Origin: a virus
Direction: 5' to 3' (one strand)
Length of the DNA: 14,202 nt
Virus genome (UHGV): UHGV-0304018
Part shown: positions 1-13,671 of the stretch, in pieces
How the letters are laid out: each line of letters starts with the position of its first letter
Numbering within the stretch: position 1 is the stretch's first letter
Made by a program: the position numbers and the translations under genes
The notes under the pieces: generated by a model
What the model was told of the DNA's origin: nothing
The model's input: only the letters and a program-made list of their open reading frames with translations
Databases searched by the model: none

Positions 1-46
1 GTAATTTCCACATTGACCTCCGGATCTGTTTCTCCCCCTATTTATA

Positions 47-75
47 ATCTTATCATACTGTCAACAGAATGTCAA
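47..75 (-). promoter_or_regulatory. Candidate leftward promoter inside the conserved 110-nt repeat block (copy A)
   Basis: On the minus strand: TTGACA (rc of 70..75), 17-nt spacer, TAAGAT (rc of 47..52). It points at a GTG start at position 11 whose ORF runs off the left window edge. Confidence 0.35.
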
Positions 76-382
76 TGAGAATTATTATCATTCAGGTGTG
101 CTATAGGTGCAAGCAAGTCCACAGCAAAGGGGTAAGCATTATTAATGGCCCCTACCGTGTCAAAACCAGAATCACTTATAGCATTTATGCAATAAGATTG
201 TCAATGGCCCACAATGGATGGAGAGCACTTTTTGTTAAAACTTTGGAGGGTGTTAAACTCAAACCTCATGAGAGGCCCTACAACGCGATTTAAGCATCAG
301 GTAATGCAATTCACTAGGGAGTATGGTTTATCTCGCTGTAGGCGCTAAAATCGCGCTTATTTTCGATTTATGAGTGTCATAT

Positions 383-404
383 TACGTGCATGCACACGCG
401 CGCG
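383..404. repeat. 22-nt strictly alternating purine-pyrimidine tract (tacgtgcatgcacacgcgcgcg) in repeat copy A
   Basis: Read directly. Copy B has an analogous 19-nt tract at the equivalent place with a different sequence. Confidence 0.8.
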
Positions 405-506
405 GAATCCCTCGCTTAAACGGTCCGGATTGGAAACAGAAGTCTCTTATCCGGACTCCACATTATAAAGCTCCGTGCTATAGCACTACGCTCCCCACAC
501 ACAATT

Positions 507-541
507 GGGTGACGTGTCATGTATGGAATACATTGTCACCC
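507..541. promoter_or_regulatory. Large imperfect palindrome GGGTGAC-N21-GTCACCC with nested ATGTAT/ATACAT arms; candidate operator or RNA hairpin (copy A)
   Basis: Arms are exact reverse complements; identical in both repeat copies and flanked by CACACA runs. Confidence 0.5.
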
Positions 542-606
542 CACACAGGCCGACGTAGTCGGTTTAGCTGTATAGCTAAAGTCACAGAGTGACCCACACA
601 CATATT

Positions 607-645
607 GCCTAAAGAGTCGCTAATGCTCTTTAGGCTTTCATTTGT
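607..645 (+). terminator. Rho-independent terminator, rightward (copy A)
   Basis: Perfect 10-bp stem gcctaaagag / ctctttaggc with a 9-nt loop, followed by tttcatttg. Confidence 0.6.
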
Positions 646-698
646 GGGTTAAGCTTTTCCCTTAGAAAACCTTCCCCACTCTCTGATCCCTCCCCATT

Positions 699-721
699 CC
701 CCCCTGGGGGGTTAGGGGGGG
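699..721. repeat. Homopolymer cluster C6-T-G6-TTA-G7
   Basis: Read directly: cccccctggggggttaggggggg, just left of the iteron array. Confidence 0.9.
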
Positions 722-763
722 ATCTATTGTGTGGTCTATTACTTTATCTATTAGTGTCAAATA

Positions 764-949
764 TTTTTACAGGTAGTAGTAAAAGATTTTGACAGGTAGT
801 AGTAAAAATATTTTACAGGTATGGGCCGTATTATTGGTGGGGTAGTAAAATATTTTGACAGGTTAGGGGCTGTGTATCATGGGTGCAATGACTGCAAAAC
901 AGGAGAGTATGACTGTATAAACACACAGGTGTGAAAATTCTTTACAGGT
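764..949 (+). repeat. Array of five iteron-like direct repeats, core TTTKACAGGT; candidate origin of replication or protein-binding array
   Basis: Cores at 765-774, 787-796, 811-820, 854-863 and 940-949; the first two units also share acaggtagtagtaaaa; spacing of the first three is 22-24 bp. No ORF on either strand. Confidence 0.6.
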
Positions 950-1141
950 TAGTGCGGTAATATTTACCGGGGTGTGGTGCCTGAGTATGACTGAAAGGGG
1001 TTGTAGGAAATCCCAACAGGTGGGGGAGTGATTGCATCTGATTTTTTACTCTGTATTAGCCGTCAATTGACCTATTTTGACTAGCAAACCTCTCTCCTCT
1101 CTCTTTGCTTTGATTTTCTCTCATGTGTGGGAAATATGCAG

Positions 1142-1167
1142 ATCAACACCCGTTGATTTTATCAACA
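1142..1167. promoter_or_regulatory. Overlapping palindromes ATCAA-N6-TTGAT-TTT-ATCAA including a DnaA-box-like TTATCAACA
   Basis: Read directly; TTATCAACA (1159..1167) is one mismatch from the TTATCCACA consensus. Confidence 0.3.
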
Positions 1168-1726
1168 GTTATGTTGACCGGGTGTCATAACTATGGCCCC
1201 TGGGGCAGTCCATCCTTCCCTCACACAGGACAATGAATACATAAAGAACATGAAAGACTGTTCACACCAACACGCCGATAAATTGCCTGAAGAGGCTTGC
1301 ATGGGGTTATTGTTGTGTGGGTAATGGTGATCATGCTAACAGATTATGTTAATCAGATGTAAATTCCGGTTTTGTGGTCTACAGAGAACAAACTATACTG
1401 GTTAAATGATCAGGGGAATGACTACAAAACAATCAAAAATGTGGGATATAGCCATCTATACGTCTAATGTGCTGTGTGGGGTGTTAGTGCATGCTTACAT
1501 GTAAGTCATTGATTTGAAGGGTTGGGAAAATTGCATTTAACATAATAGATCTTATCTACACTAATAAAGCGCACTACAAAATCTGATTTAAAAATCATGA
1601 TCAGTGGGCACAGAATTTACGTACAGCCACCTGAATAAATAATGTGCACAACATACAGCAAAGCTTAAGAATTAACATAATAGCAACGTGGTCGGCAGTG
1701 GTGTGATATTTGAGAATTGTTAGAAG

Positions 1727-1763
1727 AAAAAAGGGAGGTGGGGGAGCGCCTGCCTGGCACCTC
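1727..1763 (-). terminator. Possible weak leftward terminator in the gene-free region
   Basis: 6-bp stem GAGGTG / CACCTC with a 17-nt loop, followed on the minus strand by CC and T6. No matching promoter was found. Confidence 0.3.
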
Positions 1764-2302
1764 AGACGAACATCTGACGGGTATTAATACCGCTAATGGA
1801 TATTTCTGACACCCACACCCAAGACCGCTTTCAGCACACAGCCATACACCGCACAGGATGCAATTGTGATAACAAAAAATGGGGGTGTAATAGGGTAGGT
1901 CATCTTTCATCAAAATCACTTCTACGACGTTCCCAGAGTGATAACAAGAAAACAGGCCTCTAAGATTATCTGTGCCTCGTTTTTAGCTTTTTGTGTGGTT
2001 ACCAGGTGAATAGGAAATGTTAAAAACTGTTCATTTTATGCACAAACTAGTCAGGGTGATACTACAAATTGAGGTGTAAGAAATCCAGCTGCAGATAATC
2101 TTGCAGCCAGATTTTGCAGTTTTTGAGGGTATGTTAAATTTGACAAAAATAGAGAAAAGGCCAATTGAGCTAAGCTATTGATTTTATTAGTATTGCAAAA
2201 AAGGGTTACATCCTCTCTCTTACACTGTCAACAATGCCCAAAACCATTAAATCAATAAATAGGCATTAAATACCCATTAAATAGGGGTTAAATAGGGGAT
2301 AA

Positions 2303-2328
2303 ATAAAAAAGGGGCCGTGATGGCCCCC
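2303..2328 (-). terminator. Rho-independent terminator ending the leftward membrane-protein gene
   Basis: Perfect hairpin ggggcc-gtgat-ggcccc (2311..2327) followed on the minus strand by T6, 17 nt after the stop codon at 2345. Confidence 0.75.
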
Positions 2329-2344
2329 TGGTGGGTTGGTGTGG

Positions 2345-3055
2345 TTATTTCATAGGAGAGGTTTCTACGGCTTCACCGTACATCTCATTAAGCATCTTCA
2401 ATGCTTCCATATCAACATTCAGGAGTGTTCCCTCAGTGATCCAGGCGTTATTCTGCCATGCTTCGTGAACGAGTTCACCGTTATACCATCGAGCCGTTCG
2501 TGTAGTTTCTATGCTTACACCGTCCATGTGGCGCATCTGTAGCCAACGATCATTGCCTTTTACATCCTTGCACCATACCGTCAGAACATCTTTATTTTTC
2601 CCAGTAGGTGCCCCACTGTTAACCGCCACTTTAATCTGGTTGCAAGCACCTTTTTCTGCATGATTCCACAGCCAGGCGTGAATCTGGTATTTATCTGTGC
2701 ATCCTATATCTTTAGAGAGATCGCAATCTAGCACACCATAAATATATTTATATGCTTTTACCCTGTCCTCCCATGTAAGATCGGAGACGTTAACCACTTC
2801 TTCATGCTGTGAGTTCACCTCTTCCACATTTGCAGCTGTATTTCCTGTGGGAAGAGAGAAGTAGGCCCAGCCAATAAGCCCCGCGACTATAACCAGACTT
2901 GTTATGACTGCTCCAGGGTGCTCTTTATATTGTGCATGCAGCTTTTTAATATCTTTCCCTACACTCATCACTAGTAATAGAGGCAAAGCAATTACTAACA
3001 CCCATGGACCAAATACAATGCAAGCTAATAGTGTAACAATAATTCCCTTAAACAT
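2345..3055 (-). CDS. Membrane protein, 236 aa: two N-terminal TM helices plus a ~165-aa extracytoplasmic domain with four Cys; function unknown
   Basis: ORF track; hydrophobic segments at about aa 5-30 and 50-68; SD AAGGGG 7 nt before the ATG; own terminator. The superinfection-exclusion or defence role is inference only. Confidence 0.75.
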   Translation of the reverse strand: MFKGIIVTLLACIVFGPWVLVIALPLLLVMSVGKDIKKLHAQYKEHPGAVITSLVIVAGLIGWAYFSLPTGNTAANVEEVNSQHEEVVNVSDLTWEDRVKAYKYIYGVLDCDLSKDIGCTDKYQIHAWLWNHAEKGACNQIKVAVNSGAPTGKNKDVLTVWCKDVKGNDRWLQMRHMDGVSIETTRTARWYNGELVHEAWQNNAWITEGTLLNVDMEALKMLNEMYGEAVETSPMK

Positions 3056-3062
3056 AGTGGTA

Positions 3063-3083
3063 CCCCTTTGCGAGAAGTTGATT
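3063..3083 (-). promoter_or_regulatory. Duplicated leader element AAAUCAACUUCUCGCAAA (minus-strand sense) immediately 5' of the ribosome-binding site of 2345..3055
   Basis: 18 nt identical to the element at 3583..3603; a 12-nt core gcgagaagttga recurs at 8086..8097. Confidence 0.5.
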
Positions 3084-3112
3084 TAAGTTAATAACCTGGT
3101 GGACTGTTCACA

Positions 3113-3373
3113 CTATTTATTCTTCTTAAATCTCCCATCCTCCTTTCTTTCGATATTGTGGTAGTCGGCATAGGCTTTTAGCCTTCTGTGCACGGTGGCG
3201 ATCCCCACACCGAAGGTTTTAGCGATGACCTGTCGTGGCGTTCCCTCCTCAACCATCTTGTACATCTGTTCCGCTACATCCATTTGTGCGGCTATCTCCA
3301 TTTGCTTTGCCTTAGCTTTAATTTCAGCTATCAGCTCTTCCCTCAGTCTCTTAATATCTTTAGTTCCCGTCAT
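3113..3373 (-). CDS. Small DNA-binding protein, 86 aa: N-terminal charged helix plus a C-terminal HTH resembling the DNA-binding domain of Hin/Gin-type serine recombinases; no catalytic domain
   Basis: ORF track; GTPRQVIAKTFGVGIATVHRRLKAY resembles the Hin C-terminal HTH as recalled from memory, not searched; start codon overlaps the stop of an upstream small ORF (ATGA). Confidence 0.7.
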   Translation of the reverse strand: MTGTKDIKRLREELIAEIKAKAKQMEIAAQMDVAEQMYKMVEEGTPRQVIAKTFGVGIATVHRRLKAYADYHNIERKEDGRFKKNK

Positions 3374-3450
3374 AAACTCCGCTCAATGATGATTAATACA
3401 AAATCTAAGACTGCCAGACCTATTAAAAATACTTTGCCTCCTTTGCCCAT
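3370..3450 (-). CDS. Possible 26-aa hydrophobic peptide (MGKGGKVFLIGLAVLDFVLIIIERSL), translationally coupled to the HTH gene
   Basis: Hand translation; below the ORF-track length cut-off; single predicted TM segment; stop overlaps the downstream ATG. Confidence 0.25.
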   Translation of the reverse strand: MGKGGKVFLIGLAVLDFVLIIIERSL

Positions 3451-3451
3451 C

Positions 3452-3574
3452 TCACACCTCCACACACAGAGCTAACATCAGGGCTAAAACTCCAACCACC
3501 TCAATTGCCTTAACAATGTGTGGGTGATGAAACCTGGCCTTTTGCCATGCGCTGGCACTGTTCTTGATACCCAT
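3452..3574 (-). CDS. Possible 40-aa peptide with hydrophobic C-terminus (MGIKNSASAWQKARFHHPHIVKAIEVVGVLALMLALCVEV)
   Basis: Hand translation; SD AAGGTGA 5 nt before the ATG; the duplicated leader element lies immediately upstream. Confidence 0.3.
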   Translation of the reverse strand: MGIKNSASAWQKARFHHPHIVKAIEVVGVLALMLALCVEV

Positions 3575-3582
3575 AACTATCA

Positions 3583-3603
3583 CCTTTTGCGAGAAGTTGA
3601 TTT
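3583..3603 (-). promoter_or_regulatory. Second copy of the duplicated leader element, immediately 5' of the ribosome-binding site of the 40-aa ORF
   Basis: Read directly; identical 18-nt core to 3063..3083. Confidence 0.5.
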
Positions 3604-3638
3604 GTTTGCTCGGTTGGGTGCTTTCACTGGCTATGCCA

Positions 3639-3655
3639 GGTGACTTTCAGTCACC
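3639..3655. promoter_or_regulatory. Palindrome GGTGAC-tttca-GTCACC; same half-site as the repeat palindromes
   Basis: Read directly; sits in the divergent control region between the leftward module and the rightward capsid promoter. Confidence 0.4.
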
Positions 3656-3744
3656 CCTTTGGGTGTCTCTATCAATGCTACCCTTCCTTGATTCGAACTA
3701 TAACCGGGTAAATCCCCGGAAAACATTGATATTGATCAAAAGAT

Positions 3745-3775
3745 ATCTATCACGAATGAAAAAGTTATGATAGAT
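3745..3775. promoter_or_regulatory. Inverted repeat ATCTATCA-N15-TGATAGAT; candidate operator
   Basis: Read directly; about 90 bp upstream of the consensus capsid promoter; a further ttgatagagg half-site follows near 3800. Confidence 0.4.
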
Positions 3776-3861
3776 GCGATGAGATGACGTATTGATGGGA
3801 TTGATAGAGGTCTGAAAATACCGTTACTACGCTAATTATTAGAATTTATATAATAAGGGGG

Positions 3862-3890
3862 TTGACAATTTGAGAGAATACTGATATAAT
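3862..3890 (+). promoter_or_regulatory. Perfect consensus sigma70 promoter: TTGACA, 17-nt spacer, TATAAT
   Basis: Read directly: -35 at 3862..3867, -10 at 3885..3890, with an AT-rich upstream stretch. Confidence 0.8.
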
Positions 3891-3896
3891 ATACAT

Positions 3897-4370
3897 ATAC
3901 CGTAAATCAATGGTGAAAGTGATTTGCCGTATTTTCCTCCAAAGTAAAGGCGACCAGGTAGCGGTGCCGCCTTATAAATAACACTACCCTGATCATCGTT
4001 GAGTGGTCGATTAATTCTCCTATTGGGCTAGTTATCCACACAGTTTTCTTTTGCGGGTTTTCTGTGTGGGTAGCTATCCCGAAAGGTATTTCCCCGCTGA
4101 TGTGACCGCAGCCTGAACTGATCCGGGGGAGTGCCTTTCGTGATAGTGCTCTCTAGTAACCGTAACCCATACTGTGAACTATCATCCGACTGTTGTCGGT
4201 TTCCCCATGTGGAATAGCCCCCGCTTGGCTACGGTGCGGGGCTATCTCCCTCTCCTTGTATCAATTTCCCTTTAGATTTCCGGCATAACTTTTCGGCCCG
4301 AGCCTGTCGTGGTTTGAGAGGTTATACCGGAACTCTTTGAGGGGAGTTAATTTAAATCGCAGGTGATCAA
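3897..4370 (+). other. ~470-nt untranslated, hairpin-rich leader between the consensus promoter and the first capsid gene; candidate cis-regulatory RNA
   Basis: No plausible ORF; several strong stems, e.g. ccacacag-N18-ctgtgtgg (4036..4069), ccgac-tgtt-gtcgg (4187..4200), tagcccccgc-N11-gcggggcta, aaggcg-N16-cgcctt. Folds were judged by eye. Confidence 0.5.
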
Positions 4371-4706
4371 ATGAGAGATATGACTATCCGCACACGCGGA
4401 CACATCATTTCATACGCCGCAGATGAGCAATTTTCTATTCGCGACGTTGAAATTAAAAACAAAGTTAAGGCTGAGATTCCGGCTGGCACTGTTGTTGTGG
4501 TGACTGAGGAAGGCGAGGTTGAAACATTCGTTAAAGCAACGCACACCGGTAAAACTCCGCTGCTGGTTGTAGAACGTGCTGAGGTTGGTGACGCTTTTAT
4601 CGTTGTTGCGAACAAAGGTTGCTACATCAATCCGGCCTACGTGGATAAAGAAGGCTTAGCCGCTGTTATTGCTGCCAGCAATGGCGATTTGCGTGTTGCA
4701 CAATAA
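4371..4706 (+). CDS. Putative head decoration protein, 111 aa
   Basis: ORF track; size and position immediately upstream of the major capsid gene, as in lambda D-E; AGGTGA site before the ATG; codon usage typical of a highly expressed gene. Family assignment is by context only. Confidence 0.8.
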   Translation: MRDMTIRTRGHIISYAADEQFSIRDVEIKNKVKAEIPAGTVVVVTEEGEVETFVKATHTGKTPLLVVERAEVGDAFIVVANKGCYINPAYVDKEGLAAVIAASNGDLRVAQ

Positions 4707-4711
4707 GGAGG

Positions 4712-5764
4712 TTGAAGATGGCTAAGAAAGAATTTGAAGTTCGCGATCTGTGTGGTCTGATTAAAGACATCCCGCTGGATAACCAGATTATTTCAGCAAT
4801 GGATATCTTCAACACTACAGCCCTGTGCAATACCTTTAAATTTGAATATGACAAAGTTCGCCAGGTGAAACAAACCGCTTTCGGTCAGTATCCGCGCTAC
4901 GGTGAACAGATGGCTACCATTACCGCAGATGAGCGTGAAACGGGCACGGGTGATATGGCATTCACTGCCGCATCAAGTGCTATTTATCCTTCTGACTGGC
5001 AAGGTATCCGTGTTCCGGGCAAAGATTCCGAAGAGAATTTAGAGTCTGTAACCGCTCGTCGTGTTATTCAACTGGGTGAAGGACTACGCGCGACCCATGA
5101 AGAAGCACGCCAGCTTGCTCTCTTTGAGAACAAAATTATCCTTACCAAGGGTAAAGAACTGAATGTGTGCGAACTGCTGGGCGCACAGCAAACCACTTCA
5201 GAAGTGGATCTAGCTCAAGATATCCTTAAACAGCTGCAGGACCTGGTTGCACTGAGCAAGGTTAAACAGCGTGGTGTTGTTCGCGCTCTGCGTGGTTTCA
5301 CCCTGTTCTGCCGTGCTGAGCTCTTTGCTGCAATTCAGACTGATGAACTGCTCCGTAAAGTGCTGTTGTTCGGCAATCAGAATATTACCGACAAAGGTCT
5401 GATGTTCCCTGAGGATATTCTGCCGGGCTTCCCGACCTTCCGCATTCCGGGCTTAGCTCTGCGTGTGGTGCAAATGGATAGTCTGCCAGAGAATACTGCT
5501 TATCTGGTCCCACAGTTCCAGCCGCATGCGTTAGGCGATATGGTGGGCGTTTATACTCAATTTTTCGGCCCTTGCGCTCGCAACCTGAAGCTTGCAAACG
5601 GCGCTGCACGTGAAGCTTTCATGTATATGGAAGAGTCCAGAGGTAAACGAGAAATCTTCATTGAATCCTCTTATGCTTTCATGAACATGATGCCTGAGGT
5701 TGTGGTTAAAGTGAGTGTTAGTAACTCCGCCGCCGCTGCTCTGGCAAAAGCCAAGGCTAAATAA
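4712..5764 (+). CDS. Putative major capsid protein, 350 aa
   Basis: ORF track; strong AGGAGG site 6 nt before the ATG; size and position after the decoration-like gene; followed by a terminator. Fold not verified. Confidence 0.85.
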   Translation: MKMAKKEFEVRDLCGLIKDIPLDNQIISAMDIFNTTALCNTFKFEYDKVRQVKQTAFGQYPRYGEQMATITADERETGTGDMAFTAASSAIYPSDWQGIRVPGKDSEENLESVTARRVIQLGEGLRATHEEARQLALFENKIILTKGKELNVCELLGAQQTTSEVDLAQDILKQLQDLVALSKVKQRGVVRALRGFTLFCRAELFAAIQTDELLRKVLLFGNQNITDKGLMFPEDILPGFPTFRIPGLALRVVQMDSLPENTAYLVPQFQPHALGDMVGVYTQFFGPCARNLKLANGAAREAFMYMEESRGKREIFIESSYAFMNMMPEVVVKVSVSNSAAAALAKAKAK

Positions 5765-5795
5765 GGTCCTTCTTCGAAGGCCAAATAAAAGCAAA

Positions 5796-5846
5796 GGGAA
5801 GAGGTGAGAGATCGGGGATAGGTCTTTCCCTCTTCCCTTTTTTATT
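5796..5846 (+). terminator. Rho-independent terminator after the capsid gene
   Basis: 9-bp stem gggaagagg / cctcttccc with a 24-nt loop, followed by ttttttatt. Confidence 0.55.
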
Positions 5847-5877
5847 ATCCCCGTCTTAAGTTTTTGAGGTGTCTTTT

Positions 5878-6129
5878 ATGAAAATTGTTTTATACGGCGA
5901 CCGTGACGACGTGCCTTTTGATATTATCCATATCGATGACGAGGATCTGCCGGAATTCCTGCGTATCTCCACATTTGCCGCCTGCTATGACGTTAGCCGC
6001 CAGGCTATGCATAAATACCGTGAATATAATAAATGCACCTGGGCCGAGACTTTCGAACATTTTATTGCACGCAAACAGGCACAGGACCGCAAAAAAGCCC
6101 TGAATGCCCATAATCGTTTTGCAAAATAA
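5878..6129 (+). CDS. Hypothetical small protein, 83 aa, with a possible HTH (STFAACYDVSRQAMHKY)
   Basis: ORF track ORF 5869..6129, start re-placed at the ATG at 5878 with GAGG 8 nt upstream. Confidence 0.65.
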   Translation: MKIVLYGDRDDVPFDIIHIDDEDLPEFLRISTFAACYDVSRQAMHKYREYNKCTWAETFEHFIARKQAQDRKKALNAHNRFAK

Positions 6130-6234
6130 CGCTCTCGGGAAGAGCTATAAGCGATTCTAACGAATAACTGCCCTGTATTTTCTGCAGATTTTAAGCAGGG
6201 CAACGAAAAGATTCATTTTTGAGGCATGTTCAAT

Positions 6235-7002
6235 ATGGCTAATGATGCTCTAACAGCTGCAAAACAAGCTGAGTCGAGATCTCCTGCATTCACTGTTATG
6301 TGTGGGGGATATTCACAAAACAAAAATATAATGGATGGCTTCAACTATACCGATAATGTGGCTATCTTCTTTGACTCTATCTCTGATGTCAGCTATTCGT
6401 TCCCTGTTGAGAAATCGAGCTATGCGGTCGAGGATGGCACCACCATGTCAGACCATGCCGTCATTAAAGATAAATCTGTCAGCTTTACGGGTATTGTTAC
6501 CTCTTCCCCTCATATCATCCGGAAAGAGAACTACATCGACCGGAACACTGATCCAGATAATCCCCGTGAATCTATGCGCCCTGCTGCCGCTGTTCAGGCA
6601 CTTATGGAAATGAGAGACAAGCGCCAGCTGGTTAGCCTGGTTAGTGAAGATGCCGGACTTCTTGAGAACTTCATCATGACGAAATGTGAAGTTAAGCGTA
6701 GCTCTTCCTCTGGCGACTGCATCACTATTGATTGCACTTTTGAAGAATTCCGCACCTTCAAGGTGAAGATGGTCGAAAATGCCGGAGTTTTCACTAACAG
6801 TAAGAAGGTGAATAAAACACAGCAAAAGGGTGCTGTTAACAGTGCTGAGAAGAATAGCAACGTCGGGAACTCAACCAACACCCCATCGGCTAAGCCTAAA
6901 AATTTACAAACTTTGCTCGATGAAAATGATGGGGCTATGAGCACAAAAGACATTTATGATCAGCAAAGGCAAGCCAAATTTGCCAAGGATGCTACAAAAT
7001 GA
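6235..7002 (+). CDS. Hypothetical phage protein, 255 aa, probably virion-associated; function unknown
   Basis: ORF track ORF 6226..7002, start re-placed at the ATG at 6235 (GAGG 10 nt upstream); stop overlaps the next gene's start (ATGA). Confidence 0.75.
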   Translation: MANDALTAAKQAESRSPAFTVMCGGYSQNKNIMDGFNYTDNVAIFFDSISDVSYSFPVEKSSYAVEDGTTMSDHAVIKDKSVSFTGIVTSSPHIIRKENYIDRNTDPDNPRESMRPAAAVQALMEMRDKRQLVSLVSEDAGLLENFIMTKCEVKRSSSSGDCITIDCTFEEFRTFKVKMVENAGVFTNSKKVNKTQQKGAVNSAEKNSNVGNSTNTPSAKPKNLQTLLDENDGAMSTKDIYDQQRQAKFAKDATK

Positions 7003-7457
7003 AAGTCCGGTGCACCATAGACAAGCGCATGATGGATAAGCTGCATAAAGAGCTCTCACAGATGGAAGGTGTAGCGGTTGGCTGGGATGACGGGAAACAC
7101 TATAGCGGCCTGAATTACGCCACACTGGCGGCTATCCACTCTGAGGGGTGGGGTGATTTGCCTAAGCGCTCATTTATGGAGTCTGCCCACGCTGCAATGC
7201 TCTATGAGAGCCTGAGACACACAAAAGCCCTGATTAATGCAATCGTAAAGGGTGGGAGCTCTGAGGCCGTCAGAAAGCGAATTGGCAAGCGATACGCCGA
7301 CATTTTGGAGACTATCCTGATTAGTGGGCAATTCAGCAATAACAAGGTTTCCCCACAATGGGCAAGCTATAAAGGCTTCAATGATGCAATGCGCCACTAT
7401 GATGATTTGATCGGTGCAATCAAATACTGGGTAGACATAGACAAGAAAGGGGCCTGA
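6999..7457 (+). CDS. Putative head-tail joining or tail-completion protein, 152 aa (HK97 gp10-like)
   Basis: ORF track; motif HSEGWGDLPKRSFMES matches the P-x-R-x-F signature I associate with that family; size ~150 aa. Recalled from memory, not searched. Confidence 0.75.
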   Translation: MKVRCTIDKRMMDKLHKELSQMEGVAVGWDDGKHYSGLNYATLAAIHSEGWGDLPKRSFMESAHAAMLYESLRHTKALINAIVKGGSSEAVRKRIGKRYADILETILISGQFSNNKVSPQWASYKGFNDAMRHYDDLIGAIKYWVDIDKKGA

Positions 7458-7470
7458 TAGCCCCTCTCTC
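7449..7470. terminator. Possible bidirectional terminator between convergent genes
   Basis: Hairpin ggggc-ctgata-gcccc overlapping the stop of 6999..7457, with T-rich sequence on both strands. Confidence 0.4.
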
Positions 7471-7475
7471 TGAGA

Positions 7476-7625
7476 TTAGATAAACTGGGATAATTCCCGC
7501 ACAAGCTTTATCTCCTGCCGTTCCTTCTGCTTCTCTTCTAACCATTTCCGGCCTTCTTCAGTCTTGAGAAACTTGCGAGCGTGAATCTTGCGGTTATTTC
7601 GCTTAATGGCATTGGCATTCTTCAT
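7476..7625 (-). CDS. Small very basic protein, 49 aa (MKNANAIKRNNRKIHARKFLKTEEGRKWLEEKQKERQEIKLVRELSQFI)
   Basis: Hand translation; below the ORF-track cut-off; SD AAGGGG before the ATG; candidate promoter just upstream; its start context is nearly identical to that of the membrane-protein gene. Confidence 0.5.
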   Translation of the reverse strand: MKNANAIKRNNRKIHARKFLKTEEGRKWLEEKQKERQEIKLVRELSQFI

Positions 7626-7659
7626 AGTGTCACCCCTTCTTATGACCTGCTACGCCTAC

Positions 7660-7688
7660 ATTATAGCCAAAATCCTGAATTCAGACAA
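7660..7688 (-). promoter_or_regulatory. Candidate leftward promoter: TTGTCT, 17-nt spacer, TATAAT
   Basis: -10 is rc of 7660..7665 and -35 is rc of 7683..7688; about 27 nt upstream of the start of the 49-aa ORF. Confidence 0.5.
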
Positions 7689-8085
7689 TAGAACTCTTTT
7701 TGATGCCGTGTTGGTGGTAAGGAGAAACACTAGCATCATTTAGGGGTTTTCAGGTTTTCATGTAGATCAGCTTTATCAGGTACCTGCTTATATTCCGGTG
7801 CGGTGAAACCGTGTGGGCATCTCTTAGTTTTGGCTTATCACTTATTGCCGGGTAAGAGAGCAGAACCACCAACGTTTGCCTGTTTATCACCTTGGTTAGG
7901 GTGAGGCCGCATCAAGCCCAGTGCTCTACAAGATACTCCAGATCATAGACGCTTATTTTCTCTTAGAGGTCGCGTTAACCTCTGGGATCTGTTTCCACTG
8001 ATGAATATAAAACAAACGGTATGAATGATCAAACGTGAACAGAAAGAGAGTTGACTTTCTCTCTGCAGATGATCACACTTGCCAG

Positions 8086-8097
8086 GCGAGAAGTTGA
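8086..8097. repeat. Third copy of the 12-nt core gcgagaagttga
   Basis: Read directly; lies 3' of the tape-measure gene, overlapping a possible rightward terminator hairpin (agcccc-N19-ggggct followed by ttttatt, 8097..8130). Confidence 0.5.
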
Positions 8098-8142
8098 GCC
8101 CCAAAGGATGACAAATCCCGAGGGGCTTTTATTATCAACCAG

Positions 8143-10284
8143 TTAGAAAAGCTGATTAGCTTCCTGTGTGGCTTTCCAATCCAGCTGATCGCTGACTTCC
8201 TTCTGGATCACCCTGGCAATTCCCCCCTCATCAATGGTTATCTCCCACTTGCCGGAGATCTCACCCTGCGGAACTACACTGATTTGAGTCGGCTGATAGC
8301 CTCCATTCTGAATAGCAATACCACCCGTTGGTGTTGGTCTGGTAATGTAGCGTCCTGCGTCCAGACGATAATCAAGGCCAAGGAAGCTAGAAGCACTATT
8401 AACCATACTGGTTAACCATTCAGGATGTTTAGCTCCTTCCTGCCGCTGATTATCAGGATTCTGCCAGTAGGAATCTAAGCTATTTGCAATGTCAAATCCT
8501 GTCAAAACAATCCCTGCCGGACCTGCAAATCTTCCTCCAAGTCTGCCTGCTTTCCCGATAAAGCCGCCTCTACCTGGTCTGCCTTTGCCTGCTGTGCCTC
8601 CAGTGCTGATATCACCAACACCGACTAAAGCACTAAGCGCCGCTTTAAGTTTCCACAGCATGGAAATAAGGCCGCCAACCATGCCAGCAATGCTTGTTGC
8701 AACCTTCAGGCCTAACAGGGCGGTCACAACCTGGCCAATCTTCTCGCCTGCATCCTGTGCGGTCCAGCCTAACGTCTCACCAATGCCTTTGGCGATCTTC
8801 TTAGTCCACCACCAAGCCCAGTTGACCCAAAAATAAATTTCATGCATTGCCTCGCCTAACATAACTCCGAGAGATTTGGCATCTTCACCTGAGCTACTGA
8901 AAATTGAGGATAAATCTTCAAAGATATAAATAAGGGATTCTGACAGGGTAATGACGCCATCCGCAGGATCCACAACACCCATAAAGGATTGCTTTAGTTT
9001 AAAAAACTGGTTGCTCATTCTCTGCAGTGCCACTTCAGGCTGTTGCATAGATTTAGCAAAAGCGTCAGTTTCTTTTGCAGCACCCCAGATTTTCACTAGA
9101 GAGGGAAGAAGCTTGTCCAGGGTGATTTTGCCATCTGCCATGGCTTTATCGAATTCCTGGGCACTCTTGATGATTCCGGCATCAATAGCGGCCTGTTGAA
9201 AATCCTGTTGTGAGCCTGCAAAGGCTTCTGACAGCTGGCCACGCAGCTCTTCCGCAGCTACTCTTCCTTTTGAAGCCATTTGTTGGACCGCAACAAGCGC
9301 CCTGTTCTGTTGCTCGCCAGTAGCACCCACTGAGCGGCCTTTAATCGCCATAGCCTCAAAAAGAGCCTGCTTATCAGATTCCTTCATGGTGGGAGTAGCG
9401 GCAGCAAAACGCATATAGCCACCCTCCATCTCACGCTGATCCATCCCGTAGGTGTTGGCTGTGTTCTCGATAAAAGCCATCTGCTGGTCAGTCTTGGCTT
9501 TATCATCCTTGTTCTGAGCAAGCAAACCATAATAGGCTGAGTTATGGTCAGATTGAGCGCTCATAGCACCACTAACAGCTCTCTGAATACCCCATCCTGC
9601 AGCGGTCAGGCCAATGGCTATCTTGCCTAAAGCACTGTTAAGCTTGCCGATATTGTTATGCACCTTGCTCGCACCTGCTGCCAGTTTATCTAGCTTGCTT
9701 TGAAAGGTGGTGGCATCTCTAGAGGCCATCTTCATTTCAGCTCTGAGTCGGGCCATTTTCTGATTATAGGTCTGCAGGTTAATAGCCCCTTTAGCATAAT
9801 CAGCATTAACTCTCTGGATTCTGCTTTGGAACTGAGCAACCAGGGATCCATCAAACATGCTGCTGATTCGTGCACTGTTGGCCCCTACACGTGCTTTTCT
9901 GTGCTGAACATCTCCAACACTACGATCTAACAGTTTTTGTTGTCTGGCGGCTTCTCTGGCTTGTTGTTGGTAGAACTTGCGCATAGAGTTAAGTTCGGCA
10001 TTGTTGCCCCCGGTCAGACGGCTGACAGCCTGAGCACGTTGTTTCTTCTGTGCTTCCTGTTGTTTCCTCTGAGCTCTGGCTATCTGCTCTTCCACCTTAG
10101 CGCGTGTTCTTTGTGTTCTGAGCACAGCCTGATTAGATTTAAAATCAGCTTTAGCTATATCGTCGGTAGCTTTCTTCCAGGATTTTTTATAATCCTCAAG
10201 CCGTTTAACTTCTTTTCGCCAGGAGGATTTATCAGAGTCCCAGTAAATAACGTTTGTTAGTCTGGCTACTTCCTTCATTGCCAT
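8143..10284 (-). CDS. Tail tape measure protein, 713 aa
   Basis: ORF track; charged coiled-coil-like N-terminal third, central region with the conserved core recalled for tape-measure proteins (GRVAAEELRGQLSEAF), and hydrophobic and Gly-rich segments near the C-terminus; SD GAGG before the ATG. Confidence 0.85.
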   Translation of the reverse strand: MAMKEVARLTNVIYWDSDKSSWRKEVKRLEDYKKSWKKATDDIAKADFKSNQAVLRTQRTRAKVEEQIARAQRKQQEAQKKQRAQAVSRLTGGNNAELNSMRKFYQQQAREAARQQKLLDRSVGDVQHRKARVGANSARISSMFDGSLVAQFQSRIQRVNADYAKGAINLQTYNQKMARLRAEMKMASRDATTFQSKLDKLAAGASKVHNNIGKLNSALGKIAIGLTAAGWGIQRAVSGAMSAQSDHNSAYYGLLAQNKDDKAKTDQQMAFIENTANTYGMDQREMEGGYMRFAAATPTMKESDKQALFEAMAIKGRSVGATGEQQNRALVAVQQMASKGRVAAEELRGQLSEAFAGSQQDFQQAAIDAGIIKSAQEFDKAMADGKITLDKLLPSLVKIWGAAKETDAFAKSMQQPEVALQRMSNQFFKLKQSFMGVVDPADGVITLSESLIYIFEDLSSIFSSSGEDAKSLGVMLGEAMHEIYFWVNWAWWWTKKIAKGIGETLGWTAQDAGEKIGQVVTALLGLKVATSIAGMVGGLISMLWKLKAALSALVGVGDISTGGTAGKGRPGRGGFIGKAGRLGGRFAGPAGIVLTGFDIANSLDSYWQNPDNQRQEGAKHPEWLTSMVNSASSFLGLDYRLDAGRYITRPTPTGGIAIQNGGYQPTQISVVPQGEISGKWEITIDEGGIARVIQKEVSDQLDWKATQEANQLF

Positions 10285-10285
10285 T

Positions 10286-10522
10286 TTATACCTCGCCCTG
10301 TCTTAAAGATTTTGATAATGAAATAGCCCTTTTCAGGGCCTCTTTATCAATATTATATTTCTCCGCCAGCTCTTCGATTGAGAGGCCTTCTGTGTGGGAG
10401 CTACTTTTAATAATGGTGGACCCCTCTTTCGCTGCCTCTGGCAGGTGACCTATTGTCACCCCTTCGGGCGTGTCTTCGGAGTCCTTAACCAGTTTTTGAT
10501 AAATCTTTTCGTAGATATTCAT
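10286..10522 (-). CDS. Hypothetical protein, 78 aa, immediately upstream of the tape-measure gene
   Basis: ORF track; SD AAGG 8 nt before the ATG; stop is 1 nt from the tape-measure ATG. A tail-assembly-chaperone role is inferred from position only. Confidence 0.7.
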   Translation of the reverse strand: MNIYEKIYQKLVKDSEDTPEGVTIGHLPEAAKEGSTIIKSSSHTEGLSIEELAEKYNIDKEALKRAISLSKSLRQGEV

Positions 10523-10523
10523 A

Positions 10524-10913
10524 TCATTTGCCTTTGCGTCTTAGTGGACACTTATCGCCAATAGTCCACACAAAAATATAATGGCGCTTGCTTTCAGCTT
10601 TAGGATTTAATAATTCTTTATGCAAATATCCGGCTGACAGCATTTTATCGACCAGGTTTTTCACTCTTTGCCCTTCCTCAAATGTTTGTGCTTTGAAATA
10701 GAGATTTGGAAAGTTTTGGCCTGTATACTTTCCATCTTCATTTAAGCGGGTGCATACCCAACGACATAAATCATCGTCGTTAAGATCACTAACGTGTGGT
10801 TTATCATCGCTGCTAAATAACGCCTGTTTAAAATGGGAGTAACTAAACTCCCCTTCTTCCAGGAAATCACCCTCTTCGAATTCAACTATCATTTCTTCAA
10901 TATTCATAGGCAT
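10524..10913 (-). CDS. Hypothetical protein, 129 aa, acidic N-terminus; possible tail assembly chaperone by position
   Basis: ORF track; compact gene spacing. Confidence 0.75.
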   Translation of the reverse strand: MPMNIEEMIVEFEEGDFLEEGEFSYSHFKQALFSSDDKPHVSDLNDDDLCRWVCTRLNEDGKYTGQNFPNLYFKAQTFEEGQRVKNLVDKMLSAGYLHKELLNPKAESKRHYIFVWTIGDKCPLRRKGK

Positions 10914-10967
10914 ATCCTCTCATTGATGCACCCCCCAAAAAATGGGGAGTGCTTATTTATCAATAGC

Positions 10968-11411
10968 TTAATCAAGATTAACCAGTTTGAGAGGTTTGAC
11001 AGCTTGGAGCATGGTCTGCATCATTCCTACGCTTATTTCAAAGAGATCTGCCATGTTCTGAAGGCTTGCCCCTTCTGCCTCAATCATTGATTTGGATAAG
11101 GCAGCAATCACAAAGCCATCCTGGGCGCTGTTCCACATGCTGATAAGAGGATCATCACCGTGTTGGCGCATAAGGTCCTGAATCATCCACAGCCTACATG
11201 CCATAACCACCAAATCGACATAGAAAACATCACCATTAGCGGACTTGCATTCAGCAAAAGCGTGGTGTCTGTGTTTTAAGAAGTGCTCTTTGTCACGGGT
11301 AAATGCCAGGGTGTTGGTAAACTTGCCATCTAAAAGATCCTGGCGAACTTTTGAATCTTCAGCGTCGAAAGCTTTGATTACCTGGGATAATAATTTAGCG
11401 ATTTGAGACAT
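10968..11411 (-). CDS. Hypothetical protein, 147 aa
   Basis: ORF track; AGGA 7 nt before the ATG. Confidence 0.75.
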   Translation of the reverse strand: MSQIAKLLSQVIKAFDAEDSKVRQDLLDGKFTNTLAFTRDKEHFLKHRHHAFAECKSANGDVFYVDLVVMACRLWMIQDLMRQHGDDPLISMWNSAQDGFVIAALSKSMIEAEGASLQNMADLFEISVGMMQTMLQAVKPLKLVNLD

Positions 11412-11484
11412 TTGGAATTCCTTAAATTAGAGCCCCGGAAGGGGTTAAAGTGAGTCGAAAATAAATAAATCGAAGAGATAAAAC

Positions 11485-11973
11485 TTAGGCTTTCTGGGCC
11501 ATTGCTTTCTGGACTTTATTTCTATGGCGGCGGTAGATGAATATAAATTCGCGATAAGCACGACTACCGGGCTTAGGCAAACGTTGATTAAGCTCCTTAC
11601 GTGGCAGGATTTCACTCAACAAGCCCCAGATATGAAAGCAGGTTACTTTTAATTCTTTTGCTATCTCTTCAATATTCATCCCACAATTCCACATTAAAAG
11701 AGATTTGCGGCGGCGATCTTCGAAGACATTTCTATCTCTATCTATTTCGTTGTAGACACTGAGGGGAACTCGACACCGTGGATTCCAGGACTCATTATAT
11801 AGTTTTTGGACTTTCTCAAGTTTAACGCCTGTATATTCCGCCACGAATTCAGGGGTAAAGCCCTCGACTAATAAGTGTTTAGCCTGTCGTGTTGGTTGAT
11901 CATCACTGGGGAGATATTTCTGCAGTGCTACCAGTTTTTCAAATTGGGAATCAGAAAGATCAGATTTGAACAT
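11485..11973 (-). CDS. DNA-binding protein, 162 aa, with a sigma70 region-4-like HTH; candidate late-gene activator or small-terminase-like protein
   Basis: ORF track; RRKSLLMWNCGMNIEEIAKELKVT follows the region-4 pattern (R-x-hydrophobic-L-x4-G-x3-EEIA-x2-L-x-V); GGAGA 7 nt before the ATG. Confidence 0.75.
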   Translation of the reverse strand: MFKSDLSDSQFEKLVALQKYLPSDDQPTRQAKHLLVEGFTPEFVAEYTGVKLEKVQKLYNESWNPRCRVPLSVYNEIDRDRNVFEDRRRKSLLMWNCGMNIEEIAKELKVTCFHIWGLLSEILPRKELNQRLPKPGSRAYREFIFIYRRHRNKVQKAMAQKA

Positions 11974-12071
11974 GATTAATTCTCCGAACGTTTAAAAGAT
12001 CAGGGCAATCAATCTAGTTCTAGTGCTTAGTTTGTTTATTTAGTTTGTTTGGGGATAACAGGGGATATTAA

Positions 12072-12218
12072 TTAATAAGGGATGTCAGAATCATTTTCTT
12101 CATCTGCTGGATCTTCAGCTAACCAACCACAATATTCTTCCCAATATGAAAAATGTTGTGATAGTTCATCTTCAAAATATTTTTCCTTTTCCAGGTAATA
12201 ATCAAGATCGCCATACAT
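12072..12218 (-). CDS. Small strongly acidic protein, 48 aa (MYGDLDYYLEKEKYFEDELSQHFSYWEEYCGWLAEDPADEENDSDIPY); candidate DNA mimic or anti-defence protein
   Basis: Hand translation; below the ORF-track cut-off; AGGA 8 nt before the ATG; 16 acidic versus 2 basic residues. Confidence 0.5.
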   Translation of the reverse strand: MYGDLDYYLEKEKYFEDELSQHFSYWEEYCGWLAEDPADEENDSDIPY

Positions 12219-12257
12219 TTTAAATTTCCTTTAGAATACTGTAAAAAATAAGAATGT

Positions 12258-13121: not shown

Positions 13122-13137
13122 CATAATTCCCCCATAA

Positions 13138-13353: not shown

Positions 13354-13486
13354 AGTATAAGCCTCCTGTTAGCTCACTAACCTGTGCGATATATGATTAA
13401 AAAGAAACGGGAACTTAAGACAAGCCCCCGCCAGTCTACTAAAGGAAATTCACTATGATGAGAATTACCCTATGCTTTATATTTTA

Positions 13487-13636: not shown

Positions 13637-13671
13637 ATTGACCTCCGGATCTGTTTCTCCCCCTATTTATA

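What the first reader, a model, noticed from the sequence alone, without database searches (positions are those of the whole stretch)
3897..4370. Perfect consensus promoter feeding a ~470-nt structured untranslated leader
TTGACA-17-TATAAT is the strongest possible sigma70 promoter, yet the first start codon is ~475 nt downstream and the intervening RNA has no credible ORF and many stable stems. This looks like a cis-acting control RNA (antitermination or attenuation, a protein- or sRNA-responsive switch, or a processed non-coding RNA) gating capsid synthesis.
Basis: partly seen in the sequence, partly recalled or inferred. Interest (0 to 1): 0.65.

Follow-up and report, generated by a model that had tools for sequence, protein, structure and literature searches.

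The report
Structured leader RNA gating capsid genes
A perfect bacterial promoter on a small E. coli plasmid that carries phage head and tail genes drives a long, highly folded, evolutionarily conserved untranslated RNA just ahead of the capsid genes; it belongs to no catalogued RNA family and most likely holds capsid production in check.

Summary
TTGACA-17-TATAAT, with an extended TG, sits at 3862-3890 and is the only 12/12 match in the window (0.01 expected by chance). The next credible start codon is at 4371. The 474 nt between carry no conserved ORF and fold far better than shuffles on the + strand only (z -6.7).

The window is a ~13.5-kb E. coli plasmid with phage structural genes. The leader precedes a lambda gpD-like head-decoration gene and a gpE-like major capsid gene.

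The same layout, a near-consensus promoter followed by a 470-710-nt structured leader, occurs in three diverged lineages. Capsid identity between them falls to 50%. Helices covary, and a covariance model built from the most distant lineage finds only 3926-4150 (+) in the window.

Within the window's lineage the leader core is more conserved than the flanking genes. There is no Rfam match.

The two sister lineages have a canonical intrinsic terminator at the position of hairpin 4211-4249, and a segment that pairs with the ribosome-binding site. The window's lineage keeps the hairpin but has lost the U-tract, and its RBS pairing is ambiguous.

Best reading: a cis-acting attenuator and translational gate for the capsid operon. 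This rests on sequence analysis alone. A dual role as a short trans-acting RNA is not excluded.

The parts
3817..3861 (+). A/T-rich stretch upstream of the -35 hexamer (UP-element-like), conserved within lineage 1
   Evidence: Promoter-region alignment. Any function is inferred.
3862..3890 (+). Sigma-70 promoter TTGACA-17-(TG)TATAAT. Relatives have TTGACA-17-TAAAAT (lineage 2) and TTGACT-17-TATAAT (lineage 3).
3897..3932 (+). 5' hairpin H1. The 5' arm differs between plasmid variants but still pairs with the conserved 3' arm UGAUUUGCCGUAU.
3924..3975 (+). Three-strand region. The middle strand GGCG (3948-3951) can pair either with upstream UGCC (helix P1b, 3924-3953) or with downstream CGCC (helix H2, 3947-3973). 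All three strands change together in the other two lineages. The loop CAGGUAGCGGUG is conserved.
   Evidence: CCGAC/GUCGG versus CAGAC/GUCUG. The idea that this is a switch is inference.
3926..4150 (+). Conserved core of the RNA family (P1b/H2, H3, H4). Within lineage 1 it is nearly invariant.
   Evidence: Diversity pi 0.000-0.028 against about 0.02-0.17 in flanking genes. It is the only significant hit in the window for a covariance model built from lineage 3 (14.8 bits, E 8.8e-4, filters off).
3990..4021 (+). Candidate anti-Shine-Dalgarno strand. UGAUCAUC can pair with GGUGAUCA at 4361-4368, and 4003-4021 with 4339-4359.
   Evidence: RNAalifold consensus. The homologous segment pairs with the SD in lineages 2 and 3, with a compensatory switch in L032. 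In the window itself the ensemble is split.
4025..4080 (+). Hairpin H3 (18 bp, -31 kcal/mol as an isolated hairpin). Many G-U pairs make it strand-specific.
   Evidence: The L003 homologue keeps the pairing with a different sequence.
4081..4139 (+). Hairpin H4. Its base, GAAAGGUAUUU/AGUGCCUUUC, is conserved with compensatory changes in all three lineages.
   Evidence: (helix 8: 98% of cells paired, 3 pairs with changes on both sides).
4140..4199 (+). Variable hairpins H5 and H6. H6 is CCGAC/GUCGG in 7 plasmids and CCAAC/GUUGG in 8.
   Evidence: pair 317-326: AU 8, GC 7.
4211..4249 (+). G+C-rich hairpin H7 (-20.6 kcal/mol). It is the positional homologue of the intrinsic terminator of lineages 2 and 3, but here it is followed by CUCUCCUUGUAUC rather than a U-run.
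4250..4347 (+). C-rich, G-poor spacer followed by long hairpin H8. The distal part of H8 tolerates an insertion of about 80 nt in L009.
4360..4373 (+). Shine-Dalgarno AGGUGAU and the AUG of the first gene
4371..4706 (+). 111-aa head-decoration protein, lambda gpD / phage 21 SHP fold
   Evidence: AlphaFold2 pLDDT 84. Foldseek hits 1td0, 8xqb and 1c5e with probability 1.0 and TM about 0.6.
4712..5764 (+). Major capsid protein (relatives annotate the ATG at about 4718)
   Evidence: phrog_29 at E 1.7e-20. The 50%-identical relative P0019 carries PF03864 Phage_cap_E.
5785..5848 (+). Strong hairpin directly after the capsid gene, probably a terminator
   Evidence: (I6).

Best explanation
The stretch 3897-4370 is the 5' leader of the head-decoration and major-capsid operon of a small plasmid-borne phage-satellite-like element. 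A very strong, probably constitutive sigma-70 promoter transcribes a conserved multi-hairpin RNA that keeps the operon mostly silent. In the two sister lineages this works in two ways. First, an intrinsic terminator about 330 nt into the leader ends most transcripts. Second, in read-through transcripts a segment about 50-140 nt from the 5' end pairs with the Shine-Dalgarno sequence of the first gene. In the window's own lineage the conserved core and the terminator-homologous hairpin remain but the U-tract is gone. There the block would have to rely on RBS occlusion, on Rho acting on an untranslated C-rich leader, or on a bound factor. The nearly invariant core (3926-4150) is the likely sensor or binding platform for whatever opens the gate, presumably during infection by a helper phage. 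What the sequences show: the promoter, the absence of an ORF, strand-specific structure, conservation, covariation, and the terminator in relatives. What is inferred: the transcription start, that termination and occlusion actually occur, and the identity of the inducer.
For: The promoter is unique and perfect and is kept as an 11-12/12 match in all 25 relatives with enough upstream sequence. The leaders of all three lineages are strongly structured: z -6.7, -7.6 and -7.0. For the window the - strand was also folded and gives only z -2.5. The leader core is less variable than the neighbouring protein-coding DNA. Covariation in lineage 3 is clear: 91.9% of cells are paired, and 18 pairs change on both sides against 11.1 +/- 2.0 in shuffles (0/500) and 3-7 in slid controls. 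A covariance model built from lineage 3 alone recovers the leader core in lineage 2 (E 2e-4) and lineage 1 (E about 1e-3). Its only significant hit in the whole window is 3926-4150 on the + strand. Lineages 2 and 3 have an intrinsic terminator inside the leader, with a covarying stem and an invariant U-run. SD pairing with an upstream leader segment is predicted at high probability in lineages 2 and 3, and changes in step with the SD in L032 (CCUCUU with AAGAGG). No other good promoter lies between the terminator and the start codon. The genes downstream are late structural genes.
Against: The window's lineage lacks a canonical terminator: the tail is CUCUCCUUGUAUC and the scan calls no terminator in 3897-4370. 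In the window the SD is only about 57% paired in the ensemble and the predicted partner differs between near-identical plasmids. No antiterminator alternative helix was identified. No antiterminator-type domain was detected in the plasmid ORFs scanned, and several of them match no Pfam family at all. There are no transcript data. Part of the low diversity in the core could reflect recent common descent or recombination rather than selection.
Confidence: 0.55

Rival explanations
1. The functional product is the short RNA itself. Transcripts ending at or near H7 (about 330-350 nt) form a stable non-coding RNA that acts in trans, and capsid expression by read-through is secondary. Its target could be read-through capsid mRNA, as with Gifsy-1 IsrK or the P4 CI RNA, another plasmid mRNA, or a helper-phage component.
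For: Lineages 2 and 3 have a bona fide terminator, so a discrete RNA is expected. The most conserved part lies entirely upstream of that terminator. The anti-SD segment would be free in the short RNA. Leader 4009-4020 has a 12-nt Watson-Crick match to the RBS of the 162-aa gene (11974-11985, - strand), kept in all five full lineage-1 plasmids. A precedent exists for a dual small and messenger RNA (PMC4825925).
Against: The window's lineage has no terminator that would define a 3' end. The 12-nt match is about what chance gives (roughly 0.5 expected) and has no counterpart in the lineage-3 plasmid L034. Duplex scans against all translation-initiation regions show no outstanding target. There is no Rfam match to the C4/CI/IsrK families.
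Confidence: 0.25
2. It is simply a long structured 5' UTR that stabilises the capsid mRNA against RNase E and 5'-end decay, as the ompA leader does, with no on/off gating.
For: A 5'-terminal hairpin (H1) is present in every lineage despite differing sequence. The strong promoter is consistent with a need for very high expression of capsid proteins.
Against: Stabilisers need only a 5' hairpin. This reading does not explain an invariant 225-nt core, a terminator inside the leader in two lineages, or SD pairing with compensatory change. Constitutive high capsid expression from a resident plasmid would be costly.
Confidence: 0.1
3. The conservation reflects a DNA-level site rather than an RNA, for example a packaging (pac/cos) site, a replication or partition site, or an operator array.
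For: Satellites must carry a packaging signal, and non-coding DNA next to head genes is where cos/pac sites often lie (general knowledge). The region is the best-conserved DNA in this part of the plasmid.
Against: The excess of structure is strand-specific and depends on G-U pairs. Substitutions are compensatory at the RNA level. The region sits directly downstream of a conserved strong promoter. It has no similarity to any phage genome; the only helper-like DNA is a 52-nt motif outside the leader that is missing from most relatives. Iterons, the likely origin, lie elsewhere at 753-863.
Confidence: 0.07
4. The leader hides one or more small protein-coding genes or a regulatory leader peptide.
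For: A 23-codon ATG ORF starts at 3910, and L003 has an ATG at a similar place.
Against: The ORF has no Shine-Dalgarno sequence. The ATG is absent from lineage-1 variants L001, L002 and L007. The peptides are unrelated between lineages. Variation follows base-pairing, not codon positions.
Confidence: 0.03

Closest known systems
Lambdoid late-operon control: promoter PR', the 194-nt 6S leader RNA ending at terminator tR', and Q antitermination (established knowledge)
   Same: A strong constitutive sigma-70 promoter makes a short terminated leader RNA upstream of late structural genes, and expression of those genes requires read-through. A -10-like hexamer lies in the initially transcribed region of all three lineages, reminiscent of the sigma-dependent pause element.
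   Different: No Q-like protein was detected among the plasmid ORFs scanned. The leader is two to three times longer and highly structured, with a conserved core that the 6S RNA lacks. There is no sequence relationship. The window's lineage has no canonical terminator.
Satellite/plasmid P4 immunity: the PLE leader and the processed CI RNA (established knowledge; related RNAs are in Rfam as C4/IsrK)
   Same: The element is a satellite that can live as a plasmid. A constitutive promoter drives the leader. A leader-derived RNA segment pairs with complementary sequences in the same transcript, causing premature termination and blocking translation of the first gene.
   Different: P4 uses this to control its replication operon, not capsid genes. 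The CI RNA is about 80 nt and processed by RNase P. No tRNA-like element and no Rfam match were found here. The complementarity here is to the SD only and is ambiguous in the window's lineage.
Gifsy-1 prophage IsrK, a dual small and messenger RNA (PMC4825925)
   Same: Transcripts either stop at an internal terminator, giving a short RNA, or read through to give a translationally inactive mRNA. The short form can act on the long form. The element was acquired horizontally and is phage-related.
   Different: IsrK controls an antiterminator/toxin module and is much shorter. No homology was found. Trans action here is only a possibility.
T4 lysozyme (e) and soc early transcripts, in which the RBS is buried in a hairpin (established knowledge)
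   Same: A late structural or lysis gene is transcribed early in a form whose ribosome-binding site is sequestered by upstream RNA.
   Different: In T4, relief comes from late transcripts that start inside the hairpin. No internal promoter is detectable here, and the pairing spans 340-480 nt rather than a local hairpin.

Membership tests
Any Rfam 15 family, including C4/P4-CI/IsrK, riboswitches, T-box, leaders, and large ncRNAs such as ROOL, GOLLD and OLE | Match to the family covariance model | tested here: not met
   A permissive cmscan of the whole window, both strands, gave 0 matches at E <= 1.
Intrinsic-terminator attenuator (leader with a factor-independent terminator upstream of the first gene) | G+C-rich hairpin immediately followed by a U-run, located between promoter and start codon | tested here: not met
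   In the window the hairpin 4211-4249 is present (-20.6 kcal/mol) but the tail is CUCUCCUUGUAUC, and no terminator is called in 3897-4370. The homologous hairpin in lineages 2 and 3 does meet the criterion.
Intrinsic-terminator attenuator | Mutually exclusive antiterminator helix that involves the 5' arm of the terminator | tested here: inconclusive
   MFE, ensemble and alignment folds show no consistent alternative helix for H7. Alternative pairings do exist further upstream, at P1b versus H2.
Translational operator with a long-range anti-SD | The SD is paired with an upstream leader segment, and the pairing is kept by compensatory change | tested here: inconclusive
   The criterion is met in lineage 3 (partner +131..140, summed probability 4.7-8.8 of 10; L032 switches both sides) and in lineage 2. 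In the window's lineage the partner varies and the SD is 24-58% unpaired.
Lambdoid Q / PR' late antitermination | A Q-family antiterminator protein encoded by the element | tested here: not met
   Pfam scans of 19 plasmid ORFs found no antiterminator domain, only HTH and replication-initiator hits. A helper-encoded factor cannot be tested with these tools.
Lambdoid Q / PR' late antitermination | A -10-like pause-inducing element in the initially transcribed region | tested here: inconclusive
   TATACC, TATAGT, TATGAT, TATAAA or TATAAT lies a few bases after the -10 hexamer in all lineages. The region is A/T-rich and the transcription start is unmapped.
P4 CI / IsrK-type leader-derived regulatory RNA | A discrete short RNA released from the leader by termination or processing | not testable with these tools
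   This needs Northern blots, RNA-seq or 3'-end mapping. The terminator in lineages 2 and 3 predicts an RNA of about 330-350 nt.
The new leader RNA family itself (three lineages of capsid-bearing plasmid-like elements) | Near-consensus promoter, core of P1b/H2, H3 and H4, H7 hairpin, and position upstream of the gpD-like and gpE-like genes | tested here: met
   The synteny is the same in every locus whose contig extends upstream of the gpD-like gene. Promoters. The covariance model from lineage 3 hits window 3926-4150 at E 8.8e-4, the only significant hit.

The most novel reading that the evidence does not exclude
The leader is a new class of large dual-function satellite RNA. It is made constitutively from a perfect promoter and mostly ends as a stable structured RNA of about 330-350 nt. 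Its invariant core directly senses a component of an infecting rV5-like helper phage, either a protein or an RNA. Sensing then switches the same locus to read-through and translation of the satellite's own decoration and capsid proteins. In other words, the helper-detection switch would be RNA-based rather than the protein anti-repressor mechanism used by PICIs and SaPIs.
Probability: 0.15. Interest if true: 0.85.

Novelty: new variant of a known kind. Interest (0 to 1): 0.6.

Why it matters
How phage satellites keep their hijacking genes silent until a helper phage arrives is a central question. The known answers are protein repressors and anti-repressors (SaPI/PICI) and the small CI RNA of P4.

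This element offers a testable RNA-level gate: a conserved, uncatalogued structured RNA of 470-710 nt between a consensus promoter and a satellite-encoded capsid module.

The carrier is a family of ~13.5-kb E. coli plasmids with their own gpD/gpE-like head genes and with tail parts related to rV5-like myoviruses. I found no description of this family in the literature I could search. A 2025 review states that only one plasmid has been shown to be a phage satellite (PMC12282955).

The three lineages differ naturally in whether the terminator is present. That makes them a ready-made comparison for experiments.

Tried and rejected
**Known RNA or tRNA-like element.** The permissive Rfam scan and ARAGORN both found nothing.

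**Homologues in reference collections.** GTDB species genomes and IMG/VR gave nothing, by capsid peptide patterns or by a leader DNA pattern. The metagenome pattern scan returned only close relatives, including the window's own source contig.

**Mimicry of helper DNA or RNA.** blastn of the leader against 50,697 phage records matched only a 52-nt motif that lies outside the leader. A sensitive search of PLSDB returned only the same five plasmids.

**Helper late promoter inside the leader.** The motif proposed for rV5 late promoters (TggTAaAAtA; PMC3606486) is absent from the leader. A T4-type TATAAATA occurs at 3973-3980, but it is AATAAATA in L003 and lies upstream of the anti-SD strand. It therefore explains nothing.

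**Leader peptide.** Rejected because it is not conserved.

**Trans targets.** Searches for exact complementarity of 11 nt or more, and duplex scans against every translation-initiation region in the window and in L034, gave no convincing conserved target.

**Rho loading site.** The C/G ratio peaks at only 1.6-1.8 over 4217-4296, and that stretch is predicted to be base-paired. It remains a possibility and is not a finding.

Full report
**1. The observation**

- The sequence at 3862-3890 reads TTGACA-17 nt-TATAAT, with TG immediately before the -10 hexamer. It is the only 12/12 promoter match in the window.
- A search for the exact pattern finds one copy against 0.01 expected in dinucleotide shuffles.
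- The next credible translation start is the ATG at 4371, preceded by AGGTGA. A transcript starting near 3897 would therefore have a leader of about 474 nt. The start site is inferred from spacing and has not been mapped.
- ORFs within the leader are at most 33 codons on the + strand and 44 on the - strand. None is conserved in relatives.
- As RNA the + strand folds at -172.9 kcal/mol against -135.7 +/- 5.5 for shuffles (z -6.7). The - strand gives z -2.5.
- In a sliding scan of the whole window, 4001-4350 stands out, on the + strand only.

**2. Context**

- The window is not a phage genome. It is a ~13.5-kb circular E. coli plasmid read past its start: 1-671 recurs, with differences, at 13626-14202.
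- Nine or more E. coli plasmids of 13.2-13.7 kb are 91-97% identical to it. One 39.6-kb record holds three copies.
- These plasmids carry a replication initiator, HTH proteins, a tape-measure protein, a Dit-like "tail tube initiator", a tail-completion protein and a major capsid protein.
- The Dit-like protein is about 45% identical to that of rV5-like myoviruses (Vequintavirinae).
- The capsid protein has no tblastn match in 50,697 phage records. Its 50%-identical relative carries Pfam Phage_cap_E, the lambda gpE family.
- The 111-aa gene immediately after the leader has no family match. Its AlphaFold2 model (pLDDT 84) matches the phage 21 SHP and lambda gpD head-decoration proteins, with Foldseek probability 1.0 and TM about 0.6.
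- The leader therefore precedes a D/E-like decoration and capsid gene pair. Annotated relatives leave the roughly 1-kb stretch between the divergent HTH gene and this gene empty.
- I found no description of this plasmid family in the literature I could search. A 2025 review says only one plasmid has been shown to be a phage satellite (PMC12282955).

**3. Comparative evidence that the leader is a functional RNA**

Protein searches with the capsid and gpD-like proteins, followed by contig look-ups, gave three lineages with identical synteny.

| Lineage | Source | Distinct leaders | Capsid identity to window | Promoter | Leader length |
|---|---|---|---|---|---|
| 1 | The window and its E. coli relatives | 15 | 93-99% | TTGACA-17-TATAAT | about 470-560 nt |
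| 2 | E. coli plasmids like L003 | not counted (L003, L020-L027) | 82% | TTGACA-17-TAAAAT | about 496 nt |
| 3 | Metagenomic contigs L019, L028-L037 | 8 | 50% | TTGACT-17-TATAAT | 550-711 nt |

- Every locus with enough upstream sequence has its promoter at the homologous place.
- The leaders of L003 and L019 are as strongly structured as the window's, at z -7.6 and -7.0.
- Within lineage 1, nucleotide diversity in the leader core 3921-4170 is 0.000-0.028. That is below the flanking protein-coding DNA, which is mostly 0.02-0.17.
- The variable positions in lineage 1 keep their pairing. H6 is CCGAC/GUCGG in seven plasmids and CCAAC/GUUGG in eight.
- Three different 5' arms of H1 all pair with the same conserved 3' arm.
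- L009 carries an insertion of about 80 nt at the tip of H8, and the base of that helix stays intact.
- In the more diverse lineage 3, the RNAalifold structure has 91.9% of cells paired. Eighteen pairs change on both sides, against 11.1 +/- 2.0 in column shuffles (0 of 500 as high) and 3-7 when partners are slid.
- Homologous hairpins (5' hairpin, P1b, H2, H3, H4, H7) are found in all three lineages with different sequences.
- As an objective cross-check, a covariance model was built only from the lineage-3 core (193 positions). It finds the lineage-2 leader at E 2e-4 and lineage-1 leaders at E about 1e-3.
- Run without filters over the whole window and both strands, that model's only significant hit is 3926-4150 (+), at 14.8 bits and E 8.8e-4.
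- No Rfam family matches at E <= 1. No similar sequence exists in the phage or plasmid collections beyond the family itself.

**4. Anatomy bearing on mechanism**

(a) *Internal terminator.*
- In lineages 2 and 3 the hairpin homologous to window 4211-4249 is followed by a U-run: UUUUUUUUUA in L003, and UAUUUUUUUA in seven of the eight lineage-3 leaders (one U shorter in L035).
- The scan calls it a terminator.
- Its stem covaries: CCCCCGC/GCGGGGG against CCCCAUCC/GGAUGGGG.
- It lies about 330 nt from the promoter and 130-380 nt upstream of the start codon. No better-than-background promoter follows it.
- This is direct sequence evidence that in those lineages most transcripts from the strong promoter should stop before the capsid genes.
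- In all 15 lineage-1 leaders the hairpin is kept (-20.6 kcal/mol) but the tail is CUCUCCUUGUAUC. By the usual criteria the window itself has no intrinsic terminator.

(b) *RBS pairing.*
- Partition-function folding of full leaders pairs the SD with an upstream segment at +131..140 (AUCCCUUGA) in L019, L035 and L037.
- In L032 the homologous segment CCUCUU does the pairing, and the SD of that plasmid has changed to AAGAGG. This is a compensatory switch across about 470 nt.
- Lineage 2 pairs its SD with +50..62.
- In the window's lineage the alignment consensus pairs 3990-3997 and 4003-4021 with 4339-4368. The ensemble, however, is split between this partner and a local one (4251-4259), and near-identical plasmids give different partners. 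The SD is 24-58% unpaired. For the window, RBS occlusion is therefore only a plausible inference.

(c) *Possible switch.*
- A middle strand can pair either with an upstream or with a downstream copy of a short direct repeat. The middle strand is GGCG in the window, GCCGCC in L003 and CCGACC in L019.
- All three strands change together between lineages.
- This looks like the mutually exclusive helices of a switch. I could not connect it to H7 or to the SD.

(d) *Initially transcribed region.* All lineages have a -10-like hexamer a few bases after the -10 element. The region is A/T-rich and I give this little weight.

**5. Interpretation**

The best-supported reading is a cis-acting leader that gates the decoration and capsid operon. 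It would act by attenuation, seen clearly in the sister lineages, and by translational occlusion. The invariant core would be the platform for an unknown factor that opens the gate. That factor most plausibly appears during infection by a helper phage, given the plasmid's helper-related tail genes.

Rivals:
- The short terminated RNA could be the real product and act in trans, as with P4 CI or IsrK. I could not find a convincing target. One 12-nt match to the RBS of the 162-aa gene is conserved in lineage 1 but is about what chance gives.
- The leader could be a mere mRNA stabiliser.
- The conservation could reflect a DNA-level site. Strand-specific structure and RNA-type compensation argue against this.
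- The leader could hide small ORFs. Lack of conservation argues against this.

All of this rests on sequence analysis alone.

**6. Comparison with known systems**

In logic the leader resembles four systems:
- the lambdoid PR'-6S RNA-tR'/Q late switch;
- the P4 PLE leader and CI RNA;
- Gifsy-1 IsrK (PMC4825925);
- the RBS-sequestering early transcripts of T4.

It is a member of none of them:
- It has no Rfam match.
- It has no tRNA-like element.
- No Q-like or other antiterminator domain was detected in the plasmid ORFs scanned.
- It is several times larger than those leaders, with a conserved multi-helix core that they lack.

I file it as a new RNA family that is a new variant of a known kind of control, a leader attenuator or translational operator.

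**7. Verdict**

Its hedged interpretation is supported by the comparative evidence, and its two stated refutation conditions are not met.

Interest is moderate to high. The RNA is real, conserved and uncatalogued, and it sits at the control point of a satellite-like element that appears undescribed. The mechanism is likely to belong to a familiar class, though, and the window's own copy lacks the clearest mechanistic feature, the terminator.

Noticed in passing
window 1-14202 (whole); relatives L001, L002, L008, L009, L034: The window is a ~13.5-kb non-mobilizable E. coli plasmid carrying a gpD-like decoration gene, a gpE-like capsid gene, a tape-measure protein, a Dit-like tail-tube initiator (45% identical to rV5-like phages) and a tail-completion protein. 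No terminase or portal domain turned up in the ORFs scanned. It looks like an undescribed plasmid-borne satellite, or assembly parasite, of Vequintavirinae. No paper describing it was found.
   Followed up: partly
window 3621-3672 (+) and 10427-10475 (+); L012 (rV5) 2501-2551 and 296-353: A motif of about 50 nt with three small overlapping hairpins (CACTGGCTATGCCAGGTGACyTT..GTCACCCCTTyGGGTG) is about 90% identical to intergenic DNA of 33 rV5-like phage records. In rV5 it lies inside that phage's 2.6-kb 'non-coding' box. It is missing from about 65% of the plasmid relatives, so it behaves like a small mobile or dispensable element shared by plasmid and helper.
   Followed up: partly
window 1-671 versus 13626-14202: The two ends of the window repeat each other, but not exactly: 90% over the first 126 nt, with offsets shifting between 13530 and 13625. 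The source contig is 15.5 kb for a ~13.5-kb plasmid. This suggests either an assembly of two co-existing variants or a real partial tandem duplication.
   Followed up: no
window 494-863 and 600-2345: This 1.7-kb stretch is almost free of ORFs and is also unannotated in relatives. It contains four 22-nt iteron-like repeats (753-863) and strong palindromic hairpins that begin with CCCACACACA (494-542, 593-671). It is probably the replication origin, but it is much larger than an origin needs to be.
   Followed up: no
window 3862-3890 (+), 13509-13481 (-), 13700-13672 (-): Three strong promoters share an extended -35 region, TTGACAATT(T/G)G, and a TG-extended -10. The third has TTGACAAT duplicated 11 bp apart. 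This could be a common operator for a plasmid regulator, or a promoter class tuned to compete during infection.
   Followed up: no
window 3064-3084, 3583-3603 (weaker copy 4333-4353); L003 305-327 and 753-775; L019 2927-2947: A conserved 21-nt box, CCyTTTGCGAGArGTTGATTT, lies just upstream of minus-strand genes on the coding strand (AAATCAACyTCTCGCAAArGG) in all three lineages. It may be a shared translation-initiation or regulatory site for the leftward genes.
   Followed up: no
window 4009-4020 (+) versus 11974-11985 (-): The leader segment GAUUAAUUCUCC is perfectly complementary to GGAGAAUUAAUC, which immediately precedes the AUG of the 162-aa gene. The match is conserved in five full-length lineage-1 plasmids. 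About 0.5 such matches are expected by chance.
   Followed up: partly
NZ_CP043822.1 (39,610 bp plasmid record): This record contains three copies of the ~13.2-kb unit. It may be a multimer, which would be the natural substrate for headful packaging into a larger capsid.
   Followed up: no
window 10286-10522 (-): The 78-aa ORF annotated in relatives overlaps the second copy of the rV5-like 50-nt motif, so either the ORF call or the motif's non-coding nature is doubtful. Likewise, rV5 gp157 overlaps a reverse copy of the motif.
   Followed up: no
L037 1-301: One lineage-3 contig has a gene with T5orf172/MUG113/DUF723 domains (homing-endonuclease-like) next to the leftward regulatory genes. This gene is absent from the other relatives.
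   Followed up: no
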